A stretch of DNA of 64,000 bases from Rickettsiales bacterium (GTDB lineage Bacteria; Pseudomonadota; Alphaproteobacteria; Rs-D84): positions 76,738-140,737 of the forward strand of contig JAISAB010000002.1 in NCBI GenBank assembly GCA_031266915.1, given 5' to 3'. A program made the position numbers and the translations under genes. The notes beneath the pieces are model-generated. The model saw only the letters and a list, made by a program, of their open reading frames with translations, was not told the origin of the DNA and searched no databases. Every line of letters starts with the position of its first letter. Positions within the stretch are counted from its first letter, which is position 1. Below, one piece after another: positions 2,808 to 44,901 of this stretch.

Positions 2808-3046
2808 AAGCTCAACTGACATCGAATGTATCTTTTGTGGTGCCAAAAACTCAAGATTCGTCATACTGGCCACCGGGCCCCGCGAAAAACGACTGTTTTT
2901 CATGGGTGGTCTAAGCTGGTATGACGATGTGTGTTGTTCTCGGTTTTTTTGAAAAACAATAATCAATAGTTTTTCAAAATTCAATGCCGGTATGACGGCA
3001 AGAGAAAAGAATTTCGAAAAAGGTAAATTCGATGTCAGTTGAGCCT
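2808..3046. mobile_element. MITE-like palindromic element, copy A (28-bp terminal inverted repeats gctcaactgaca..gaatg / ..attc..tgtcagttgagc)
   Basis: The termini gctcaactgacatcgaatgtatctttt (2810-) and aaaaaggtaaattcgatgtcagttgagc (-3045) are inverted copies. The internal caagattcgtcatactggc and ccggtatgacggcaag are also inverted. The element is homologous to copies at 41195-41392 and 44649-44838 and to a truncated copy near 12570-12650. Confidence 0.6.
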
Positions 3047-10252: not shown

Positions 10253-10364
10253 ATTAGTAACTAGTGTATAGTGTTTAGTGCTTAGTTAATAGTGCATAGT
10301 GATTTAATTATCAGGTTATAACACTATAAACTATACACTAATCACTATGCACTACTAACTTGTT

Positions 10365-12569: not shown

Positions 12570-12650
12570 TTTTGGCTCCTAAAACTCAATATCAGGGTGA
12601 CGGCAAGCGATAAGAATGTTGAAAAGATACATTTTTGTCACTTGGGCGTT
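12570..12650. repeat. truncated copy of the MITE-like element (internal part only)
   Basis: The sequence aaaactcaatatcagggtgacggcaagcgataagaatgttgaaaagatacattttt matches the MITE internal/3' portion (..aaaacttcaagattcgtcata.. / ..tatgacggcaagagaaaagaatttcgaaaaaggtacatt..) and lies upstream of the autotransporter gene. Confidence 0.4.
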
Positions 12651-21182: not shown

Positions 21183-21564
21183 GTCAACCCAACTTGCAAA
21201 ATTATTTGGCTTTAACAGATGCAGCGTTTGTACACTATGCTGCCCCGAACGCGCACAGTCGGCAAAGTTTATAAAACCGTTCGAATTTTTCCTGAATTTA
21301 TGATGGATCCAAACATTTTCCTTGTATCAGAACTTTGCGCGTATTATGATACAAGCGTCGGCGGGTGTTCCGCCGGCGGGGTATCGAAACCTCCATAAGA
21401 CGCGCGCATGGGCAGTACTGTGCGATGTTCTCCAATCATTTGGTTGGAGGGCTGGTGGAATAAGGCATTACGCTGAATACGCCGCACTATATCTTATGTA
21501 GTTTCGAACCTCCAACCACCTTTTTCGGGTGGTTTTTCATTCGCTGAAAAAAAAGGAGGTTGGA

Positions 21565-22164
21565 ATGAGAAAATTAATGTTTCTTGTTGTTTCGTTTCTG
21601 GTTGTTTTGTCTCTGGCGCCGAGATTGTTCGCCGCCAGTTGCAGCGGCAGCTGCTGCGACAGCGGCAATGTATTGGGAGGTTCTAACATAATGGATTATT
21701 GCATTGGCTCCAGCGTTAGATTTATTGGGTGTTACGACACATATATAGTTTATACATGCGATGCGTGCATATCCGGCTACTATACCAGGTACAAAATCGA
21801 TAGTGATTATCCTGGCGAAATATATGGATGCCATTATGACCCGCCAGCATGCGGCACATGCAACGAAACGGTCACCGACTGGGTAAATGTAGACTCGAGC
21901 CGCCAAAGGCGGACCGTCACCAAAACATGCGCCAGCGGATGCACTTGTACCAATTGCAGCGGCACTGTCACGGAATACCAATGCGGCGCCAATTATTACG
22001 GCACCGCGACCAACAACAGCACCAGTTGTACCAGTTGCCTGAACAACGGGAAGAAAGCAGTGGGCAACGGCGATATAACGGACTGCTATATTCCGGCCGG
22101 TCAGGAAATCAGCGACGACACGGGCAAATTTACATTTGATCAGGACTGCCATTATTCGAAATGA
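21565..22164 (+). CDS. cysteine-rich secreted protein
   Basis: Signal peptide MRKLMFLVVSFLVVLSLAPRLFAA, followed by ~30 Cys in 175 aa (CSGSCCDSG, CTCTNCSG). The RBS is aaggaggt. Confidence 0.6.
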   Translation: MRKLMFLVVSFLVVLSLAPRLFAASCSGSCCDSGNVLGGSNIMDYCIGSSVRFIGCYDTYIVYTCDACISGYYTRYKIDSDYPGEIYGCHYDPPACGTCNETVTDWVNVDSSRQRRTVTKTCASGCTCTNCSGTVTEYQCGANYYGTATNNSTSCTSCLNNGKKAVGNGDITDCYIPAGQEISDDTGKFTFDQDCHYSK

Positions 22165-24491: not shown

Positions 24492-24543
24492 CCATTAGTA
24501 GTTAGTAACTAGTGGCTAGTTACTAACTACTAGCTACTAATGG
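24488..24543. repeat. tagt-rich perfect-like palindrome (hairpin)
   Basis: aaccattagtagttagtaactagtggctagttactaactactagctactaatggtt; this family is also at 10262-10360, 32262-32395 and 38190-38240. Confidence 0.5.
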
Positions 24544-24574
24544 TTTTTTGTGATACAATGGGCCCGAAGAACAA

Positions 24575-32242: not shown

Positions 32243-32261
32243 CAGTCAACCCAACTGATAA

Positions 32262-32395
32262 AATTAAAATAATCATTAGTCATTAGTTATTAGTGCTTAG
32301 TGATTAGTTGATAGTGCATAGTTAACTAGTTCACTAATAACTAAGCACTATGCACTATACACTAATGGTTATTGACTATGGACTAATGATTATTT
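32262..32395. repeat. tagt-rich imperfect palindrome (~130 bp)
   Basis: ttagtgcttagtgattagttgatagtgcatag...cactaataactaagcactatgcactatacactaatgg has complementary arms. Confidence 0.45.
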
Positions 32396-36369: not shown

Positions 36370-36440
36370 ACCGATATTTAGACACTAGTGACTGAAAAAA
36401 GTATGTTGTTTTTTGTTTGAAAACCTGCTAAAATGCGTAA

Positions 36441-36698
36441 CGAATCCATTGGGAATGGGTTCGGGGTCTCAAAAGCCCATAGATAAACGGCGATGTAAAA
36501 ATCGTTGTATCCCGCACAATAAAATCGCGGGCGAAAGCCCGATTTTTTTATTGAATCCTCGCCAGTTGGTCGGGGAAGCTGCCGGTATATAAAACAGCCT
36601 CGGCGCCATTTATGGCGACGGGCGAAAACTGGCGGGGTCATTTTTATCTATGATTTTTGAACTCCCCGACCGCCAATTCCCATGGCGGTCTTTTTATT
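36441..36698 (+). ncRNA. structured ~255-nt 5' leader with antiterminator/terminator alternative; candidate riboswitch or attenuator L1, homologous to 43325-43580
   Basis: A sigma70-like promoter (TTGTTT-17-TAAAAT, ~36406-36434) precedes it. The 5' block gaatccattgggaatgggttcggggtctcaaaagcccatagataaacggc is conserved. ggtcgggga (36578-) is complementary to tccccgacc, which overlaps the 5' arm of the terminator gaccgcca-N7-tggcggtc plus tttttatt. The terminator ends at the ATG of the downstream gene. Confidence 0.5.
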
Positions 36699-37154
36699 AT
36701 GAAAAAATGCCTGTGTATATTTTTATCGATTATATTTGTTGCGCCATCGCCGGCGGCAACATCGCGCGGTCGCGCAAATTACAATGTTGTCCAAAATCCG
36801 CGCGCAACGGCAACGAATATTCAATCCGCGCCTGTGTCGCAGGCGCCTGAATCGGAAACTATTGAACCGCAGAAAACAATCGCTGATATTGAAGATGCGG
36901 CTGTGTCCGCGGCATCTGAAGATAATTCGTCGCAGATTTTGGAATTAAACGCCGCTATTCGTGAACTGGAAGACGAAATGTTCAAAATGGATTCCGAATT
37001 GCGTCGTTGCGACCGCATGCGCCGCGACTGGCGCACGGCGACAATTATCGGCGGAATCGGCGTCGTTGGAACCGCCACCGGGGCGATTATTCAGGCAGCG
37101 CAAATATCCAAACAGAAAAAAGAAAATACAAAAACGGATGCGCCCCAGGAATGA
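36699..37154 (+). CDS. secreted coiled-coil protein with C-terminal hydrophobic anchor (paralog A)
   Basis: The signal peptide MKKCLCIFLSIIFVAPSPAA is followed by an acidic region, a coiled-coil (LELNAAIRELEDEMFKMDSELRRCDRMRR) and a Gly-zipper TM (TIIGGIGVVGTATGAIIQAA). Confidence 0.55.
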   Translation: MKKCLCIFLSIIFVAPSPAATSRGRANYNVVQNPRATATNIQSAPVSQAPESETIEPQKTIADIEDAAVSAASEDNSSQILELNAAIRELEDEMFKMDSELRRCDRMRRDWRTATIIGGIGVVGTATGAIIQAAQISKQKKENTKTDAPQE

Positions 37155-40022: not shown

Positions 40023-40098
40023 GGGTGCGTAGCTCAGTTGGTAGAGCAACTGACTCTTAATCAGTGGGTCTGGGGTTCGAATCCCCACGCGCCCACCA
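40023..40098 (+). tRNA. tRNA-Lys (anticodon CTT)
   Basis: The cloverleaf is acceptor gggtgcg/cgcgccc, D arm gctc-agttggta-gagc, anticodon arm actga-ctCTTaa-tcagt, T arm tgggg-ttcgaat-cccca, and an encoded CCA. Confidence 0.9.
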
Positions 40099-40109
40099 AT
40101 TTGAAACCG

Positions 40110-40215
40110 TTGGATTTCCGGCGGTTTTTCATTTAATTTGATTCAGTTATATTCACGAAAATGTTTGCTGTCAGGCGTTTTTTGTCCCGTTTTTGCCCCC
40201 GGGTGGTGTGAAAAT
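40110..40215. repeat. ~100-bp direct repeat, left copy (flanks AT-rich islet next to tRNA-Lys)
   Basis: ggcggtttttcatttaatttgattcagttatattcacgaaaatgtttgctgtcaggcgttttttgtcccgtttttgcccc...gtgtgaaaatggcgaatttc is about 85 percent identical to 41040-41145. Confidence 0.55.
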
Positions 40216-40472
40216 GGCGAATTTCTGCCGCATACAGCGTTTATTGTCGTGGGTTTGCCTTAGATTTGCTCTGTCCGCGTCTTAGAATAGCATAGAACAA
40301 ACAAGGGAGTTCATAAATGATATGAATACCATTGTTGGGCTGTTTTCTTATGCTTGCCTTATTCCGCGTGCAGTTCAAAGGCCTAATTCTGAAAATTCAC
40401 AAAATTTAGCCCCATTTCGAACATGATTTAAATAATGTATTTAATTTCTTTTTTTTGATATAATCACAACAT

Positions 40473-40955
40473 ATGCAAGCAAGGATTTGTACTATGACTA
40501 AGAAAAAAGATTTTGACACAGCGATTAAACAGATAAAAGAAAACACCAAAAGCAAAATCATAATTTCTAAAAAACTAGAAAAGGCTTGGGATGTTTCGCC
40601 ATTGGTTCCAACAGCGCAGCAAATGAAGTCATTCTTGGAAGAAATTATGTCAGTAAAAAATAAATTACAACAGAATATCGGTTCCATTGACCTGTCAAAA
40701 AAATCAAAAAATGCAGTATGGGGATTAAACGGCGGCGAACTGGTAAAGGATAAGGTTCCAGGTATTGAAGAAGATATGAAAAACTTGGACAAGTTGGTTA
40801 ATTCTTTGAATATTAAGTCGAATTCAAACGAGATTAGGTTCGTATTGGAAAAGATGACCTCGTTAGAACAAAGGGTCAGAGAACTGTTAATTGTGCAAAA
40901 TCAATCTCGTTTTCATAATTTCTTTCACGCAAATTTTCCTATTTTTGTAAGATAG
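40473..40955 (+). CDS. hypothetical protein on tRNA-Lys-adjacent AT-rich islet
   Basis: 160-aa ORF (alternative ATG at 40494). It is Lys/Asn-rich with low GC, and a -10-like gatataat lies just upstream. Confidence 0.45.
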   Translation: MQARICTMTKKKDFDTAIKQIKENTKSKIIISKKLEKAWDVSPLVPTAQQMKSFLEEIMSVKNKLQQNIGSIDLSKKSKNAVWGLNGGELVKDKVPGIEEDMKNLDKLVNSLNIKSNSNEIRFVLEKMTSLEQRVRELLIVQNQSRFHNFFHANFPIFVR

Positions 40956-41039
40956 TTTGTGTCGAAATTTTGAATTTGTCTTGCTAATCCTTGAAAATCG
41001 TCCCATATTCTCCAACATAAGATACAGCCGTCGCTACTT

Positions 41040-41145
41040 GCGGTGGTTTTTCATTTGATTCATTTATATTCACGAAAAGGTTTGTTGCAAGGCGTTTTTT
41101 GTCCCGTTTTTGCCCCAGAAAAGTGTGAAAATCAGCATTTCAGAA
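41040..41145. repeat. ~100-bp direct repeat, right copy
   Basis: ggtggtttttcatttgattcatttatattcacgaaaaggtttgttgcaaggcgttttttgtcccgtttttgccccagaaaagtgtgaaaatcagcatttc. Confidence 0.55.
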
Positions 41146-41194: not shown

Positions 41195-41392
41195 AAAACA
41201 ATCGTTCAACCGACAGGAATGTACCTTTATCGACATTCTTTTCACTTGCCGTCACCCCAGCCACCGCGGGGGTCCAATGTGTTTATCATACATGTATTGT
41301 TCACAGCTTGAATACAATGGATGCCGTCCTGCGACGTCATGACGAGTCTTGAGTTTTTGAGGCCAAAAAGGTACATTCCTGTCAGTTGAGCT
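41195..41392. mobile_element. MITE-like palindromic element, copy B (plus a solo terminal repeat at 41404-41422)
   Basis: The termini are cgttcaaccgacaggaatgtaccttt ... aaaaaggtacattcctgtcagttgagc. The interior is the reverse complement of the copy C interior (ggtccaatgtgtttatcata..gttcacagcttgaatacaatggat). It is followed by ccattcctgtcagctgaac. Confidence 0.6.
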
Positions 41393-41423
41393 ATTATATT
41401 AAAGCCATTCCTGTCAGCTGAAC

Positions 41424-42971
41424 TTATCGTATCGTATGATAAGTATTTCCCGAATAGTTGACATTTATCGCATTGCTGGCCGAACCATTGCCCAGGCTGG
41501 CGTAGCATACGGTTCCTGATGCGCTTTTTATATTTATGGATGGAATTGTGTTCTTGACAGCGTACAGAGGAATGATAAGACTTCCCGCGCGCAGGGTGGC
41601 GAATCCTGCGGCGCACATCTGCGCGCACCCACCGGCGTCCGTCTGCGAATACCCTGAATCGCAATCCCACGGGCAATTATTTCCGGTCACGCCTGCGCTG
41701 TTGCTATAACTGGAATTTGCCGGCTTGTTGGTGCAGTTGTTGCACGATGTCTGACCGGTCAGATTCTGATAGGTTCCCGCGGCGCACGCATCGCAGGAAT
41801 AGTGCCCGCTGCCGCCGGTATCGTATATCACCGTTCCGTCGTAAAGCGCCTCGCTGCCCGATACGCCGTAATGACCCGCAGGGCACGGAACGCACGAGTT
41901 AAGAAAGTCGGGGCCTTCTGGAATATCGACGGTGTAATATCCGCTGGCGCATTCGCCCCAATATCTCTTCTGGCAATTGTCGAAATTACTGCCGCCCCAC
42001 CAGCAAGTGCCGGATATGGAACTTTGTTCCGTCCAAAAGCCCGTTCCGGACCAATACCAGAAATTTCCCTTCGTATGGCAGTCGGTCGAATCATCAGAGC
42101 CAGAATCGGATGTGACTTTTGTGCTATTAGCCGCATGTCCCGGTATAAGGTCCTGACATGAATATCTGGCGGAACCATAAGAAATACCAGGACAGTAATA
42201 GCCTTGCTCGCACATGACACATTGCCCGTCAGACAGATAATATCCTTTGTCGCAGCTGACCGCGCAACCGGACGTCGCGCCCCAGGTATAGCACCCGCTG
42301 ACCCCGTTCTTGGTCGCGTTGCATGTCTGGGTGCCGTTGATTGTTCCGTTTGCAACGCTGCCGCAGCTGGCTGTCTGCGAAGTGTTGTACGTGCAGTCGC
42401 TGGTGCATGTGGCGACAGCGGGGCACGCGGTTCCGCCTGCGCAGGTGTATCCGCTGCCGTAATCCGAGCATGGCCGGCACAGCCTGGCATCCGAATTTGG
42501 GGTGCATATTGTCTGACTTGGGCTGGGCGCCATGTAGTATCCGGCTTCGCAAGTCTGCGGCACGCAAGCCCCCCAATCGTCGCCATAGGAACAGTTGTTG
42601 AAGCCGTAGTAGCTGCTGCAGTCGCCGACCAGGGTGATGCGGGATTGCTTTCCGACGCCGTTGGCTATCGCGCAGTTCTGCGATGGCGCCAAATTATCAC
42701 AACTGCATGTGTTGACGGCGCCTGGAACGCATCCTGCATTTTCTGGCCAGTCGCATATTTCCAGAGACCAATTCCAAAAAAGACCATCGGGGCAACTTAT
42801 TCTTTGATTAACAAAAGCCCCGCAAATATAAAGCGACTGACAGTCGTTGAAATCGGGAGTATAAACGGGATTTTCATCCACAAAAAACTTCTCCGAGCAG
42901 GCAGGCACTCCATAGGCCATATTGGTCGCGCATTGCACGCAAAATATGATGATAAATATAAATTTTCTCAA
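41424..42971 (-). CDS. large cysteine-rich secreted protein with Ephrin-receptor-like / VSP-like CxxC...GxY repeats
   Basis: It has a TTG start and the signal peptide MRKFIFIIIFCVQCATNMA. It contains ~70 Cys with repeated units (CVPCPAGHYGVSG; CDACAAGTYQNLTGQTSCNNC; CRPCSDYGSGYTCAGGTAC) that resemble eukaryotic GCC2/GCC3 (Ephrin-receptor-like) or Giardia VSP repeats. The antisense ORFs here are GC artefacts. Confidence 0.6.
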   Translation of the reverse strand: MRKFIFIIIFCVQCATNMAYGVPACSEKFFVDENPVYTPDFNDCQSLYICGAFVNQRISCPDGLFWNWSLEICDWPENAGCVPGAVNTCSCDNLAPSQNCAIANGVGKQSRITLVGDCSSYYGFNNCSYGDDWGACVPQTCEAGYYMAPSPSQTICTPNSDARLCRPCSDYGSGYTCAGGTACPAVATCTSDCTYNTSQTASCGSVANGTINGTQTCNATKNGVSGCYTWGATSGCAVSCDKGYYLSDGQCVMCEQGYYCPGISYGSARYSCQDLIPGHAANSTKVTSDSGSDDSTDCHTKGNFWYWSGTGFWTEQSSISGTCWWGGSNFDNCQKRYWGECASGYYTVDIPEGPDFLNSCVPCPAGHYGVSGSEALYDGTVIYDTGGSGHYSCDACAAGTYQNLTGQTSCNNCTNKPANSSYSNSAGVTGNNCPWDCDSGYSQTDAGGCAQMCAAGFATLRAGSLIIPLYAVKNTIPSINIKSASGTVCYASLGNGSASNAINVNYSGNTYHTIR

Positions 42972-43081: not shown

Positions 43082-43324
43082 CGTTTGAATCAGGCATGGC
43101 AATATGCTTATTTACGTTTTGAATTATCTCGTATATTCATCTTTCTGTCAATGAAAAAAATGGCGTCTTTAGATATTTATATTCGGATTGTATTTCTGCA
43201 GGAGTATGTTTTGCAATCCTGGCGCGGCGAAACCATCACGAGCGGTGGTTATAAAATAGAGCATGGCCATAAAAATCAATTAATTTTTCTTTGAAAAAAT
43301 TTAGTTTTAGTTTACAATACATGT

Positions 43325-43580
43325 GAATCCAAAGGGATTTGGGTTCGGGGCCTTCAAAAAGCCCATATAAGAACGGCATTGTAAATGTCGAAATCCGCAT
43401 GATAAGACACGGCGCGGATGCGCCTTTTGTTTTATCATGAATGCCCCGCAAAGGTCGGGGGGCCGCCGGTTATGCAACAGGGTTATCCCAAAGGCCAGCG
43501 GGGTCATTTTCTTATATGATTTTTTGAACTCCCCGACCGCCATTTTCTTGGCGGTTTTTTATATAAAAAAAGGAAATCAT
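43325..43580 (+). ncRNA. structured ~255-nt 5' leader with antiterminator/terminator alternative, L2, homologous to 36441-36698
   Basis: A promoter TTGAAA-16-TACAAT (43291-43318) precedes it. The conserved 5' block is gaatccaaagggatttgggttcggggccttcaaaaagcccatataagaacggc. ggtcgggg (43455-) is complementary to ccccgacc, which overlaps the terminator gaccgcca-ttttctt-ggcggt plus tttttt (43533-43562). The RBS aaaggaaa and the ATG follow. Confidence 0.5.
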
Positions 43581-44642
43581 ATGAAAAAAACAATCCGCAT
43601 GTTATTCTTCCTGGCATGCGTCTTTTGCGCGCTGGACGCGCGCGCCGGATGCAAAGGCACCGAATGGACGTACAAGCGGAACAATCACGGCAACAACGGC
43701 AACGCCATAGGATGTGACTGCAGCGAGAAATCCAGCGGATACCGAATATACGAGCGCGGATACAACTCTAAAGCGTTTGTTGACGGCAACAAGACCAGAT
43801 GCAACTTTCCAAATCGCAGCTATTGCCATGATACCAGCGGCGCCCGCGACACGTGGGAGAACTGTACCGGAAAAATCATATATTCCGGAACTCCGTCAAG
43901 CCATGATTCCAGCGGTCTGGGGCATCAGATTCCGGCGGACGTTCTTTTCGAAGTGTCGTCGCTGCCGCTGAACAGCACGGCACGGCCGCACCTAAATGAC
44001 GGCGGCGACGAGAGCAACTGCAAACAGGACGGCAAAAATGGCGAGTGCGGATGGGTCGCATTTTGCAACAGCGGATTCGAATGGAATTCGACACACAAAA
44101 AGTGCGTTTGCCCCGCTGGCCGGGTCTCGTCTCCGGATGGCAAATCGTGCGTGACAATCGCCGAATGCGAATCGGATTCCAGCTATGAGGCAACGGACGG
44201 CGCCTGCATCACGTCGAAATGGTGCAGCCCGGAATGGAGGACCAGCTTCGACAACGCGCAACACGCGACGAAACTCGTCAACAACTGCGACGAATTCCGA
44301 TGCATAGACGGATACGGATTCAAATCGGCGTCGGACAAGTCCTGTGTGCCGGCCGAGGGCGACAAGTTCGGCGGCCAATACCCTGATTCGACAACCGGGA
44401 TTATGAAAAATTGCATGAAAACGCAAAAAGTGAGAATAACCAAAAGCGGCGATACTTCGGAATATTCGTGCGCAGAGGCCGATTATAAGGCGTCCGACGA
44501 CGAAATGAAGAAATGCTTTCGCTGCGAGGAAACCGAAGATTTCAAAAATTGCATAAAATTCCAAGGCAAAGACGGGATAAACGGAGTTTTGCTGAAATGT
44601 GCGAAATGTATGGAGTTAGACGCGATGCCGTGCTGGGAATAA
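43581..44642 (+). CDS. cysteine-rich secreted protein
   Basis: Signal peptide MKKTIRMLFFLACVFCALDARA, then ~40 Cys in 330 aa with EGF/TNFR-like spacing (CVCPAG, CNSGFEWNSTHKKC). Confidence 0.6.
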   Translation: MKKTIRMLFFLACVFCALDARAGCKGTEWTYKRNNHGNNGNAIGCDCSEKSSGYRIYERGYNSKAFVDGNKTRCNFPNRSYCHDTSGARDTWENCTGKIIYSGTPSSHDSSGLGHQIPADVLFEVSSLPLNSTARPHLNDGGDESNCKQDGKNGECGWVAFCNSGFEWNSTHKKCVCPAGRVSSPDGKSCVTIAECESDSSYEATDGACITSKWCSPEWRTSFDNAQHATKLVNNCDEFRCIDGYGFKSASDKSCVPAEGDKFGGQYPDSTTGIMKNCMKTQKVRITKSGDTSEYSCAEADYKASDDEMKKCFRCEETEDFKNCIKFQGKDGINGVLLKCAKCMELDAMPCWE

Positions 44643-44648
44643 AATAAG

Positions 44649-44838
44649 GCTCAACTGACAGGAATGCACCTTTTTTGCCCCAAAACTTCAAGATTCGTCA
44701 TACCGGCGCCAGCTGGTATCCATTGTATTCAAGCTGTGAACAATACCCGTATGATAAACACATTGGACCCCGTCCTGCGACGGGGTGACGCCAAGTGAGA
44801 AGAATATCGAAAAAGGTACATTCCTATCGGTTGAGCGA
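44649..44838. mobile_element. MITE-like palindromic element, copy C
   Basis: The termini are gctcaactgacaggaatgcaccttttttg ... aaaaaggtacattcctatcggttgagc. The interior has caagattcgtcataccgg and the same sequence as the copy B interior in inverted orientation. Confidence 0.6.
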
Positions 44839-44901
44839 AAATAAATATAAGTCGATTTCGAACTTTTTTAATGCGAATTTGGATTTAGTATTATAGAATA
44901 T

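What the first reader, a model, noticed from the sequence alone, without database searches (positions are those of the whole stretch)
43280..43581. Second copy of the structured leader (L2) upstream of a Cys-rich secreted protein
Same element as at 36441-36698. The terminator gaccgcca-ttttctt-ggcggt-tttttt is at 43533-43562, followed by the RBS aaaggaaa and the ATG at 43581. The antiterminator segment aaaggtcggggggccgccgg is at 43452-43471. Two copies with conserved switch logic, each driven by its own promoter, argue for a bona fide cis-regulatory RNA family rather than chance hairpins.
Basis: seen in the sequence. Interest (0 to 1): 0.8.

Follow-up and report, generated by a model that had tools for sequence, protein, structure and literature searches.

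The report
Xcc1-like pseudoknotted attenuator leader RNA
This is a real, roughly 235-base folded RNA leader ending in a transcription stop signal; it belongs to an uncatalogued family that sits in front of secreted and outer-membrane protein genes in uncultured gut Alphaproteobacteria, and its core is a rearranged relative of the phage and integron RNA called sRNA-Xcc1.

Summary
Window 43325-43560 is a promoter-driven structured RNA. It ends in an intrinsic terminator 20 nt before the RBS and ATG (43581) of a Cys-rich secreted protein. It is homologous to 36442-36695. A third, diverged copy lies at 21353-21552.

Pattern scans and a covariance model found 54 distinct full-length members in uncultured termite, ruminant and human gut Alphaproteobacteria. 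Covariation is strong: 90% of cells paired, 57-58 pairs with compensatory changes, score 0.41-0.45 against 0.18 shuffled.

No Rfam 15 family reaches its threshold. The 3' core consistently matches sRNA-Xcc1 below threshold (35-50 bits; threshold 53).

The core's closing stem (GGUCGGGGAG with CUCCCCGACC) overlaps the terminator's 5' arm. An upstream CCCCG strand can hold GGUCGGGG instead. Both alternatives are kept, with different sequences, in the diverged copy.

Best reading: a conditional transcription attenuator whose input signal is unknown. Switching is inferred, not shown.

In passing, genuine Xcc1 elements looked like c4-like cis regulators of phage antirepressor genes.

The parts
43291..43318 (+). 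Promoter of copy 2: TTGAAA, 16-nt spacer, TACAAT. The implied transcription start is about 43325.
   Evidence: Consensus scan, 10 of 12 matches. A TAnnnT box lies within 16 nt upstream of P1 in all 37 members whose P1 could be located.
43325..43346 (+). P1, the 5' hairpin (GAAUCCAAA-GGGA-UUUGGGUUC). The loop G-G is invariant.
   Evidence: 9 pairs, 5 with compensatory changes, 92.9% of cells paired.
43348..43364 (+). P2 hairpin: stem 43348-43351 with 43361-43364. Its 9-nt loop carries the 5' strand of the pseudoknot PK (43353-43360, UUCAAAAA).
   Evidence: All 4 P2 pairs covary and 99.1% of cells are paired. The stem occurs in at least 12 sequence versions.
43365..43373 (+). H3 5' strand (AUAUAAGAA). 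It pairs with 43509-43517.
   Evidence: 8 of 9 pairs covary, 96.2% paired. There are 45 distinct strand combinations. The cognate partner is the best of all partners in 44 of 51 members.
43374..43390 (+). P4, a variable hairpin.
   Evidence: All 6 pairs covary, 95.4% paired.
43393..43398 (+). X: a conserved single-stranded AUCCGC, complementary to GCGGGGU at 43499-43504. Its role is unresolved.
   Evidence: Nearly invariant columns C75, C76, G77. One compensating case, L006: CCACA with UGUGG.
43398..43439 (+). P5, a long hairpin. Its G+C-rich tip (43411-43424) is followed by a conserved U-tract, so it looks like a terminator or pause site.
   Evidence: All 5 pairs of the tip covary, 95.7% paired. 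The consensus scan flags it as terminator-like.
43444..43448 (+). Y: CCCCG, a copy of the start of C3. It can form a local hairpin with G2 and is the candidate anti-antiterminator.
   Evidence: Longest Watson-Crick run with G2 averages 5.24 against 3.36 in shuffles; duplex energy -12.5 against -8.0 kcal/mol. Compensated in L013 (GACU with AGUC) and in the third copy (CUCCAAUC with GGUUGGAG).
43453..43462 (+). G2: GGUCGGGGGG, the 5' strand of the closing stem of the Xcc1-like core. This is the candidate antiterminator strand.
   Evidence: 10 pairs with C3, 97.4% paired, changed mostly on one side to G-U. It aligns to the outer stem of RF02221.
43463..43501 (+). P7 (43463-43471 with 43493-43501), an asymmetric internal loop (UAUGCAACA opposite AAA), and P8 (43480-43482 with 43487-43489).
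   Evidence: P7: 6 of 9 pairs covary, 96.3% paired. P8: 3 of 3 covary. The loop geometry and sequence resemble those of RF02221.
43502..43521 (+). P9 region: GGUCAU-loop-AUGAUU. The loop plus 3 nt of the 3' arm (43509-43517) form the 3' strand of H3.
   Evidence: It aligns to the third hairpin of RF02221. The stem is invariant in the main family, but occurs with other sequences in the diverged copies: ACUAUAU with AUGUAGU, and CAAU with AUUG.
43521..43528 (+). PK 3' strand (UUUUUGAA), the junction between P9 and C3. It pairs with the P2 loop.
   Evidence: 5 of 8 pairs covary, 90.4% paired. There are at least 12 distinct matched versions, for example UAAGAAA with UUUCUUA and UUAACAAA with UUUGUUAA. 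Cognate duplex energy -4.3 against -1.5 kcal/mol for non-cognate pairs.
43529..43538 (+). C3: CUCCCCGACC, the 3' strand of the core's closing stem. Its last 4 nt (GACC) are also the first 4 nt of the terminator stem.
   Evidence: the same columns (318-321) are counted in both helices.
43535..43560 (+). Intrinsic terminator: GACCGCCA, loop UUUUCU, UGGCGGUU, then a U-run.
   Evidence: Consensus scan. 8 pairs, 6 covarying, 95.6% paired. Mean hairpin energy across the family is about -13 to -14 kcal/mol.
43571..44642 (+). RBS (AGGA, 43571-43574) and the ORF 43581-44642: 353 aa, signal peptide, Cys-rich, no Pfam family.
   Evidence: The exact protein was also found in a Logan assembly of run SRR14710922.
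36438..36708 (+). Copy 1 of the same leader. G2 at 36568-36577, C3 at 36662-36671, terminator 36668-36695, ATG at 36699 of a secreted protein.
   Evidence: 77% identity to copy 2. Model R1 scores 193.6 bits. The terminator is called.
21353..21552 (+). Copy 3, from a diverged subfamily. It keeps P1, P2, PK, H3, Y:G2, G2:C3 (GGUUGGAGG with CCUCCAACC) and a terminator (21514-21534). It lies upstream of ATG 21565, which starts a 199-aa Cys-rich secreted protein.
   Evidence: R1 scores 26.8 bits, E = 3e-7 with filters off. Sequence. MFE z-score -5.35. Terminator. ORF.

Best explanation
The element is the 5' leader of the mRNA for the secreted protein, and it works as a transcription attenuator.

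Shown directly:
- A sigma-70-type promoter starts an RNA at about 43325.
- The RNA folds into P1, P2, P4, P5, P7 and P8, plus two long-range pairings. H3 joins the strand just 3' of P2 to the P9 loop. PK joins the P2 loop to the junction just 5' of C3.
- The RNA ends in an intrinsic terminator 20 nt before the RBS. There is no room for another promoter, so the gene can only be expressed by read-through.

Inferred:
- The 3' half is an sRNA-Xcc1-like three-way-junction core.
- Its closing stem (G2 GGUCGGGGAG with C3 CUCCCCGACC) includes the GACC that forms the base of the terminator stem next to the U-tract.
- If the core closes, the terminator loses its base and RNA polymerase reads through (ON).
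- If G2 stays held by the upstream mimic strand Y (CCCCG...), C3 stays free, the terminator forms and a leader RNA of about 235 nt is released (OFF).
- H3 and PK tether the 5' region to the core next to C3, so they probably help the core to close.

What tips the balance is unknown. It could be a small ligand or a protein bound at the conserved asymmetric internal loop, an RNA, or transcription kinetics at the P5 pause-like site.
For: Family and fold:
- 22 genome loci and 38 metagenome loci came from two different sequence patterns.
- The covariance model finds 54 distinct members scoring above 118 bits.
- 89.8-90.4% of cells are paired, against 75-77% in shuffles and about 42% with slid partners. 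57-58 pairs carry double changes. The covariation score is 0.41-0.45, against 0.18 (shuffled) and 0.07 (slid).
- H3 and PK were also confirmed without an alignment, by comparing cognate with non-cognate strand pairs.

Leader status:
- A -10 box is present in all 37 members where P1 could be located.
- The terminator covaries.
- A same-strand ORF follows closely. 33 of 45 distinct ORFs score as signal-peptide-like on a crude test, and several of the rest are mis-called starts. 3 of the 10 tested are OMP beta-barrels.

Switch logic:
- G2:C3 is 97.4% paired and shares columns 318-321 with the terminator.
- Two diverged paralogues re-create Y:G2, G2:C3 and the 4-nt overlap between C3 and the terminator, using different sequences.
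- A further copy changes G-C to U-G within G2:C3 (L005:5567-5801).
- Rough energies of the two states are nearly equal: -25.2 against -24.5 kcal/mol.
- The outer stem is a covarying helix in the related Rfam family.
Against: - No expression, termination or structure-probing data exist. Switching is inferred from sequence alone.
- Within the main family G2, C3 and P9 are almost invariant, so they give no internal covariation. Part of that invariance was imposed by my search patterns: one search fixed C3, and fixed G2.
- At column 321 the three GACA variants are compensated in the terminator (A-U), not in G2:C3.
- C3 can also pair with the G-run 5' of P2, as in the MFE structures. A correlated G-to-A and C-to-U change supports that pairing in 12 of 16 cases. 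The true alternative fold may therefore differ from my model.
- The Y:G2 signal is only moderate: 5% of shuffles reach the observed mean duplex energy.
- Some members have weak U-tracts or no nearby ORF (L011, L018, L024).
- No ligand or protein partner is identified.
Confidence: 0.6

Rival explanations
1. It is a stand-alone, trans-acting small RNA gene with its own promoter and terminator, which is how sRNA-Xcc1 is annotated. On this reading its position before a gene is incidental, or only the terminated RNA of about 235 nt is functional.
For: - It has its own promoter and a strong terminator.
- The Rfam relative was detected as an 88-nt sRNA in Xanthomonas.
- Some members lack a nearby ORF.
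Against: - An ORF on the same strand starts about 15-60 nt after the U-tract in most members, with no room for a promoter.
- Nearly every conserved single-stranded segment pairs within the molecule (H3, PK), which leaves little seed sequence for trans targets.
- The overlap between C3 and the terminator is kept in the diverged subfamilies.
- This reading is not exclusive of attenuation. The terminated leader could also accumulate.
Confidence: 0.12
2. It is a constitutive structured leader that does not switch. On this reading it is a fixed, leaky terminator plus a compact pseudoknotted fold that sets a basal expression level, protects the 5' end of the mRNA, or directs processing.
For: - H3, PK and the hairpins covary, as expected for one stable fold.
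- No ligand-like gene association exists, because the downstream genes are functionally diverse.
Against: - Two mutually exclusive partners for G2 (Y and C3) are conserved, and so is the overlap of C3 with the terminator, even in diverged copies.
- The two states have nearly equal estimated energies.
- The internal loop and UCAU are invariant but are not explained by the single static fold.
Confidence: 0.15
3. It follows c4-like antisense logic. On this reading the core (the J strand plus the P9 loop) is an antisense module, and the P2 loop plus the H3 5' strand are its two-site target. The copy-specific 'codes' keep the copies orthogonal, or they let leader RNAs from one locus act in trans on nascent leaders that carry the same code.
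For: - In genuine Xcc1 elements the same two core segments pair with two downstream sites, one of which covers the SD of an antirepressor gene. This matches the known c4/icd-ant arrangement of phage P1 (PMC8198154).
- Paralogues within one genome always carry different H3 sequences.
Against: - In this family the target and the antisense strand lie on the same molecule and would pair in cis first.
- Many members share the same PK sequence.
- Different H3 sequences are also expected from neutral drift with compensation.
- There is no evidence that a processed, free core RNA exists.
Confidence: 0.1
4. It is a repeat or mobile-element remnant (MITE, REP, integron attC, or an IS-associated guide RNA), or simply chance hairpins.
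For: - There are several copies per genome.
- The Rfam relative occurs in integron cassettes and prophages.
Against: - Extensive compensatory substitutions preserve RNA helices on one strand only.
- Orientation and distance relative to the promoter and the downstream ORF are fixed.
- No transposase, integrase, attC site or target duplication lies next to the window copies.
- The copies are 77% identical with indels, so they are not recent insertions.
Confidence: 0.02

Closest known systems
sRNA-Xcc1 (Rfam RF02221), found in integron cassettes, plasmids and prophages of Beta- and Gammaproteobacteria
   Same: - The 3' 95-110 nt align end to end with the model (positions 1-87) in every member tested, at 35.5-49.8 bits.
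- The order of parts is the same: closing stem, then a helix with an asymmetric A-rich internal loop (about 8 nt opposite 3 nt) capped by a short hairpin, then a third hairpin that begins with two G-U pairs, then a U-rich UUUGAxC junction.
- In both, the third-hairpin loop and the junction pair with two further strands that covary with them.
   Different: - It scores below the gathering threshold (53 bits), and no member passes.
- In Xcc1 the two partner strands lie downstream and include the SD of an antirepressor (Bro-N, KilA-N, P22_AR) or symE gene, which implies translational control.
- In this family the partner strands lie upstream (the P2 loop and the H3 5' strand), so the arrangement is permuted.
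- This family adds P1, P4, X, P5 and Y, and its output is an intrinsic terminator overlapping the closing stem.
- The hosts are Alphaproteobacteria, and the genes encode secreted or outer-membrane proteins.
c4 antisense RNA of phages P1 and P7 (immI operon c4-icd-ant; Citron & Schuster 1990, cited in PMC8198154)
   Same: A structured RNA is co-transcribed with its target. It uses two separate single-stranded segments to pair with two complementary sites (a/a' and b/b'; from my own knowledge of the system). The pairing sequences differ between relatives.
   Different: - No match to the Rfam C4 models at the gathering threshold, and none up to E = 10 in the two leader regions.
- c4 acts on a downstream RBS, with secondary effects on transcription.
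- Here the sites are upstream, the pairing is intramolecular, and the output is an intrinsic terminator.
- This is a resemblance in logic only.
Terminator/antiterminator riboswitches and attenuators in general
   Same: - A promoter-proximal structured leader.
- An intrinsic terminator directly upstream of the RBS.
- A conserved stem whose 3' strand overlaps the terminator's 5' arm.
- A third strand that can sequester the antiterminator.
- Two states with nearly equal estimated energies.
   Different: - No known aptamer class matches.
- The regulated genes are not a metabolic or transport pathway that would point to a ligand. They are diverse exported proteins.
- No leader peptide or tRNA-binding features were seen.

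Membership tests
sRNA-Xcc1 (RF02221) | The covariance-model score reaches Rfam's gathering threshold (53 bits). | tested here: not met
   The window copies score 37.4 and 40.0 bits. Five of the eight loci tested score 35.5-49.8 bits, and the other three give no hit at E <= 0.1. There is no hit at gathering on the window or on 18 loci. A genuine control scores 72.6 bits.
sRNA-Xcc1 (RF02221) | The core architecture: a closing stem enclosing a helix with an asymmetric internal loop and capping hairpin, followed by a third hairpin and a U-rich junction. | tested here: met
   Full-length alignments to model positions 1-87. P7 and P8 covary here. The closing stem is 97% paired.
sRNA-Xcc1 (RF02221) | The genomic setting: the RNA starts at the closing stem and lies directly upstream of antirepressor or symE genes in prophages or integron cassettes. 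| tested here: not met
   Here about 130 nt of additional structure precede the core. The downstream genes are secreted, OMP or lipoprotein genes of Alphaproteobacteria. Compare the Xcc1 loci.
Intrinsic-terminator attenuator / riboswitch-type leader | A G+C-rich hairpin followed by a U-tract, between the promoter and the RBS on the coding strand. | tested here: met
   6 of 8 pairs covary. All but 1 of the 37 members examined have a U-run of 3 or more.
Intrinsic-terminator attenuator / riboswitch-type leader | A conserved alternative helix that is mutually exclusive with the terminator. | tested here: inconclusive
   G2:C3 shares 4 columns with the terminator and is 97% paired, but it is nearly invariant. 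Compensated versions occur in three diverged copies. There is no experimental test.
Intrinsic-terminator attenuator / riboswitch-type leader | A defined effector (ligand, protein, tRNA or ribosome) that shifts the equilibrium. | not testable with these tools
   No known aptamer was hit. The gene context gives no ligand clue.
C4 antisense RNA (RF01695 and related c4 motifs) | A match to the family model. | tested here: not met
   No C4-family hit on the window or 18 loci at gathering, and none up to E = 10 in the two leader regions.

The most novel reading that the evidence does not exclude
The leader is a domesticated, circularly permuted form of a phage antirepressor-control RNA (sRNA-Xcc1). 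Xcc1 would itself be a c4-like two-site antisense regulator, not a generic sRNA.

In these gut Alphaproteobacteria the antisense core and its two target sites have been fused into one leader. Copy-specific pairing codes (at least 12 PK versions and 45 H3 versions) then gate antitermination for each surface or secreted-protein gene. This would give orthogonal, and possibly cross-talking, RNA control of the cell's exported-protein repertoire in response to a still unknown common signal read by the conserved core.
Probability: 0.3. Interest if true: 0.85.

Novelty: new variant of a known kind. Interest (0 to 1): 0.7.

Why it matters
- It adds a large, well-supported structured RNA class of about 235-260 nt, with two pseudoknot-type pairings, that the current Rfam release does not detect at its curated thresholds.
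- The class controls many genes for secreted, lipoprotein and outer-membrane proteins in a poorly known, uncultured group of gut Alphaproteobacteria from termites, ruminants and humans. These are the genes most likely to mediate contact with the host.
- Its effector is unknown, which makes it an orphan riboregulator candidate that can be tested directly.
- Its kinship with sRNA-Xcc1 suggests a reinterpretation of that widespread phage and integron 'sRNA' as a cis-acting regulator of antirepressor and toxin genes.
- It also offers a rare example of the same RNA core wired to two different outputs: SD sequestration in one case and terminator competition in the other, through a permuted arrangement.

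Tried and rejected
- Known RNA families. Rfam at gathering thresholds gave only tRNAs on the window and on 18 related loci. At permissive E-values only RF02221 recurred.
- Viral origin of this family. A scan of viral contigs with the family pattern found nothing.
- RNAalifold on a MAFFT alignment recovered only the nested local helices and missed H3 and PK. These were found by eye, then tested without an alignment and on a model-based alignment.
- Plain MFE folding replaces P2 with pairing between the G-run and C3. I rejected this as the main fold because all 4 P2 pairs covary. I kept it as a possible alternative conformer.
- A first test of Y:G2 that allowed G-U pairs did not separate real sequences from shuffles. 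A Watson-Crick-only and energy-based test gave a moderate signal.
- Broad-window duplex energies for Xcc1 and its downstream region discriminated weakly. A focused test of the P9 region against the SD region was clear.
- Constrained-fold thermodynamics of the whole leader was not attempted, because ViennaRNA cannot represent H3 and PK together with G2:C3.
- A blastn search of plasmids with the Xcc1 consensus gave a single hit.
- The original Xcc1 paper (PMC3256417) is not held in the library. A literature search for the c4-a1b1 motif returned only unrelated papers.
- The idea that the P1 loop (A/G-GGA-U) is a CsrA-type binding site was noted but not tested.
Full report
**1. The observation**

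- A sigma-70-type promoter, TTGAAA-16-TACAAT, lies at 43291-43318.
- The terminator GACCGCCA/UGGCGGUU plus a U-run lies at 43535-43560.
- AGGA lies at 43571-43574 and ATG at 43581. This ATG opens a 353-aa ORF with a signal-peptide-like N-terminus and many cysteines. The ORF has no Pfam family.
- The string aaaggtcggggggccgccgg lies at 43450-43469.

The region aligns with 36380-36720 at 77% column identity, with indels. Both copies fold far better than shuffled sequence, with z-scores of -8.05 and -5.98. The shared 18-mer at the 3' end occurs exactly twice in the window, against 0.08 expected.

**2. A large family**

Two scans with different patterns found relatives.
- A pattern on the 3' block, run over one genome per species, found 22 true loci. 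All are in uncultured Alphaproteobacteria or 'Rickettsiales' MAGs from termite gut, sheep colon and similar sources. Two further hits were chance matches.
- A pattern restricted to the G2-to-GGGGUCA segment, run over metagenomes, found 38 more loci from termite and human gut.

I built a covariance model from 46 sequences. It recovers 54 distinct full-length members at 118-248 bits. Several contigs carry two or three copies.

All 37 members in which P1 could be located have a TAnnnT box within 16 nt upstream of the first hairpin, so the RNA starts at P1.

Nearly all members end in a terminator followed closely by an RBS and a start codon.
- 33 of 45 distinct downstream ORFs pass a crude signal-peptide test. 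Several apparent failures are mis-called starts.
- Of ten proteins tested, three are OMP beta-barrel, Opacity or surface-antigen type. The others are Pfam-less Cys-rich or lipoprotein-like proteins.

**3. Structure**

On the model-based alignment (A5), 89.8-90.4% of cells form standard pairs. This compares with 75-77% after shuffling partners and about 42% after sliding them. 57-58 pairs carry changes on both sides. The covariation score is 0.41-0.45, against 0.18 (shuffled) and 0.07 (slid). None of 500 shuffles reaches any observed measure. This alignment was fitted to the structure, which favours it.

I therefore also tested the two unexpected long-range pairings without an alignment.
- H3 joins the 10-14 nt just 3' of P2 to the segment after GGGGUCAU. 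It exists in 45 distinct combinations. Each 5' strand prefers its own 3' strand in 44 of 51 cases (-11.2 against -3.4 kcal/mol).
- PK joins the P2 loop to the UUUUUGAA just 5' of C3. It exists in at least 12 matched versions, including UUCAUAAA with UUUAUGAA, UAAGAAA with UUUCUUA, UUGAAAAA with UUUUUCAA and UUAAAACA with UGUUUUAA. Cognate pairs score -4.3 against -1.5 kcal/mol for non-cognate pairs.

P1, P2, P4, the P5 tip, P7, P8 and the terminator all covary. RNAalifold alone had found only the local helices.

**4. Relation to known families**

No Rfam 15 family reaches its gathering score on the window or on 18 loci.

The only recurrent sub-threshold hit is sRNA-Xcc1 (RF02221). It aligns end to end with the 3' 95-110 nt at 35.5-49.8 bits against a threshold of 53, with E down to 7e-6 in a 64-kb search. 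The similarity extends to unpaired parts: the A-rich internal loop, the third hairpin that starts with two G-U pairs, and the UUUGAxC junction.

To see what Xcc1 does, I examined genuine examples.
- One is in a P. aeruginosa plasmid (72.6 bits). It lies 37 nt upstream of a Bro-N gene.
- 77 distinct examples came from at least 120 IMG/VR contigs. They lie upstream of P22-antirepressor, KilA-N or Bro-N genes.
- A preprint places Xcc1 upstream of symE in Xanthomonas integron cassettes.

In these elements the third-hairpin region is complementary to the SD region of the downstream gene. The longest Watson-Crick run has a median of 7, against 4 for non-cognate pairs, and only 4.5% of non-cognate pairs reach 7. 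The junction is often complementary to a downstream strand, frequently in the loop of a hairpin placed just after the core.

So the same two core segments that form H3 and PK here pair with downstream strands in Xcc1. The window family is a permuted arrangement of that design. The logic resembles the c4 antisense RNA, which is co-transcribed with icd-ant in phage P1 (PMC8198154; the two-site a/a', b/b' pairing is from my own knowledge).

**5. Mechanism**

Shown:
- The only route to the ORF is read-through of a covarying intrinsic terminator.
- C3 (CUCCCCGACC) shares its last 4 nt with the base of the terminator stem.

Inferred:
- When the core's closing stem G2:C3 forms, the terminator base is unavailable and transcription continues.
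- When G2 is held by Y (CCCCG, 43444-43448), the terminator forms.

Support for the inference:
- G2:C3 is 97.4% paired, with only wobble-compatible changes.
- The homologous stem covaries freely among genuine Xcc1 elements.
- Y pairs with G2 better than composition-matched shuffles do.
- Diverged copies re-create all three features with other sequences. At window 21353-21552, Y' is CUCCAAUC, G2' is GGUUGGAGG, C3' is CCUCCAACC, and the terminator starts within C3' (AACCACC). L042:4290-4510 shows the same design.
- Rough energies of the two states are nearly equal (-25.2 against -24.5 kcal/mol).

Open points:
- C3 could instead pair with the G-run 5' of P2.
- The conserved AUCCGC (X) and Y are both complementary to GCGGGGU, with one compensating case each (L006 and L055).
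- The P5 tip plus its conserved U-tract looks like a pause site.
- The effector is unknown.

**6. Verdict**

What is new beyond it:
- the size and host range of the family;
- the two long-range pairings;
- a third diverged copy in the same window;
- the link to sRNA-Xcc1, including the permuted arrangement.

I classify it as a new variant of a known kind. It is Xcc1-related but fails that family's threshold and context tests, and it uses a different expression platform. Interest is fairly high: it is a well-supported orphan riboregulator of exported-protein genes.

Noticed in passing
window 21353-21552 (+), ORF 21565-22164: A third, strongly diverged leader of the same superfamily lies upstream of another Cys-rich secreted protein. 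It keeps every helix and the antiterminator/terminator overlap, but with different sequences. A sister of this subfamily is at L042:4290-4510 (-).
   Followed up: partly
L063:1498-1610; L064-L183 (IMG/VR loci): Genuine sRNA-Xcc1 elements lie directly upstream of phage antirepressor genes (P22_AR, KilA-N, Bro-N). Their third-hairpin loop is complementary to that gene's SD, and their junction strand is complementary to a downstream loop. This suggests Xcc1 is a c4-like cis regulator rather than a generic trans sRNA.
   Followed up: partly
window 43411-43434 and 36528-36551: Inside the leader, the G+C-rich tip of P5 followed by a nearly invariant U-tract scores as terminator-like. It may be a programmed pause or an early termination site.
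   Followed up: no
window 41340-41395, 44785-44840, 12600-12650, 2990-3045: A conserved motif of about 55 nt (TGACGGCAAG..GAAAAAGGTACATTCCTGTCAGTTGAGC) occurs four times in the same orientation. Two of the copies lie just beyond the ends of the two Cys-rich protein genes.
   Followed up: partly
window 40023-41132: A tRNA (40023-40095) is followed by two 84-nt direct repeats (40132-40215 and 41049-41132; 87% identical). Each repeat is preceded by a terminator-like hairpin. Together they flank a 160-aa ORF (40473-40955). This could be a small inserted or duplicated unit.
   Followed up: no
window 41424-42971 (-): A 515-aa secreted Cys-rich protein with a chitin-binding peritrophin-A domain and an ephrin-receptor-like repeat. 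These are eukaryote-type domains in a bacterial gut symbiont.
   Followed up: no
L030:12414-12568 (-); L060:1272-1544; L036:664-918: Three apparently decayed or chimeric family members. L030 has an internally deleted leader that keeps only P1 and the terminator. L060 has mismatched PK and H3, and its 3' half is identical to L039. L036 has a broken H3.
   Followed up: no
window 10253-10354, 24494-24550, 32254-32378: Clusters of degenerate TTAGT/ACTAGT-type short tandem repeats recur at three intergenic sites.
   Followed up: no
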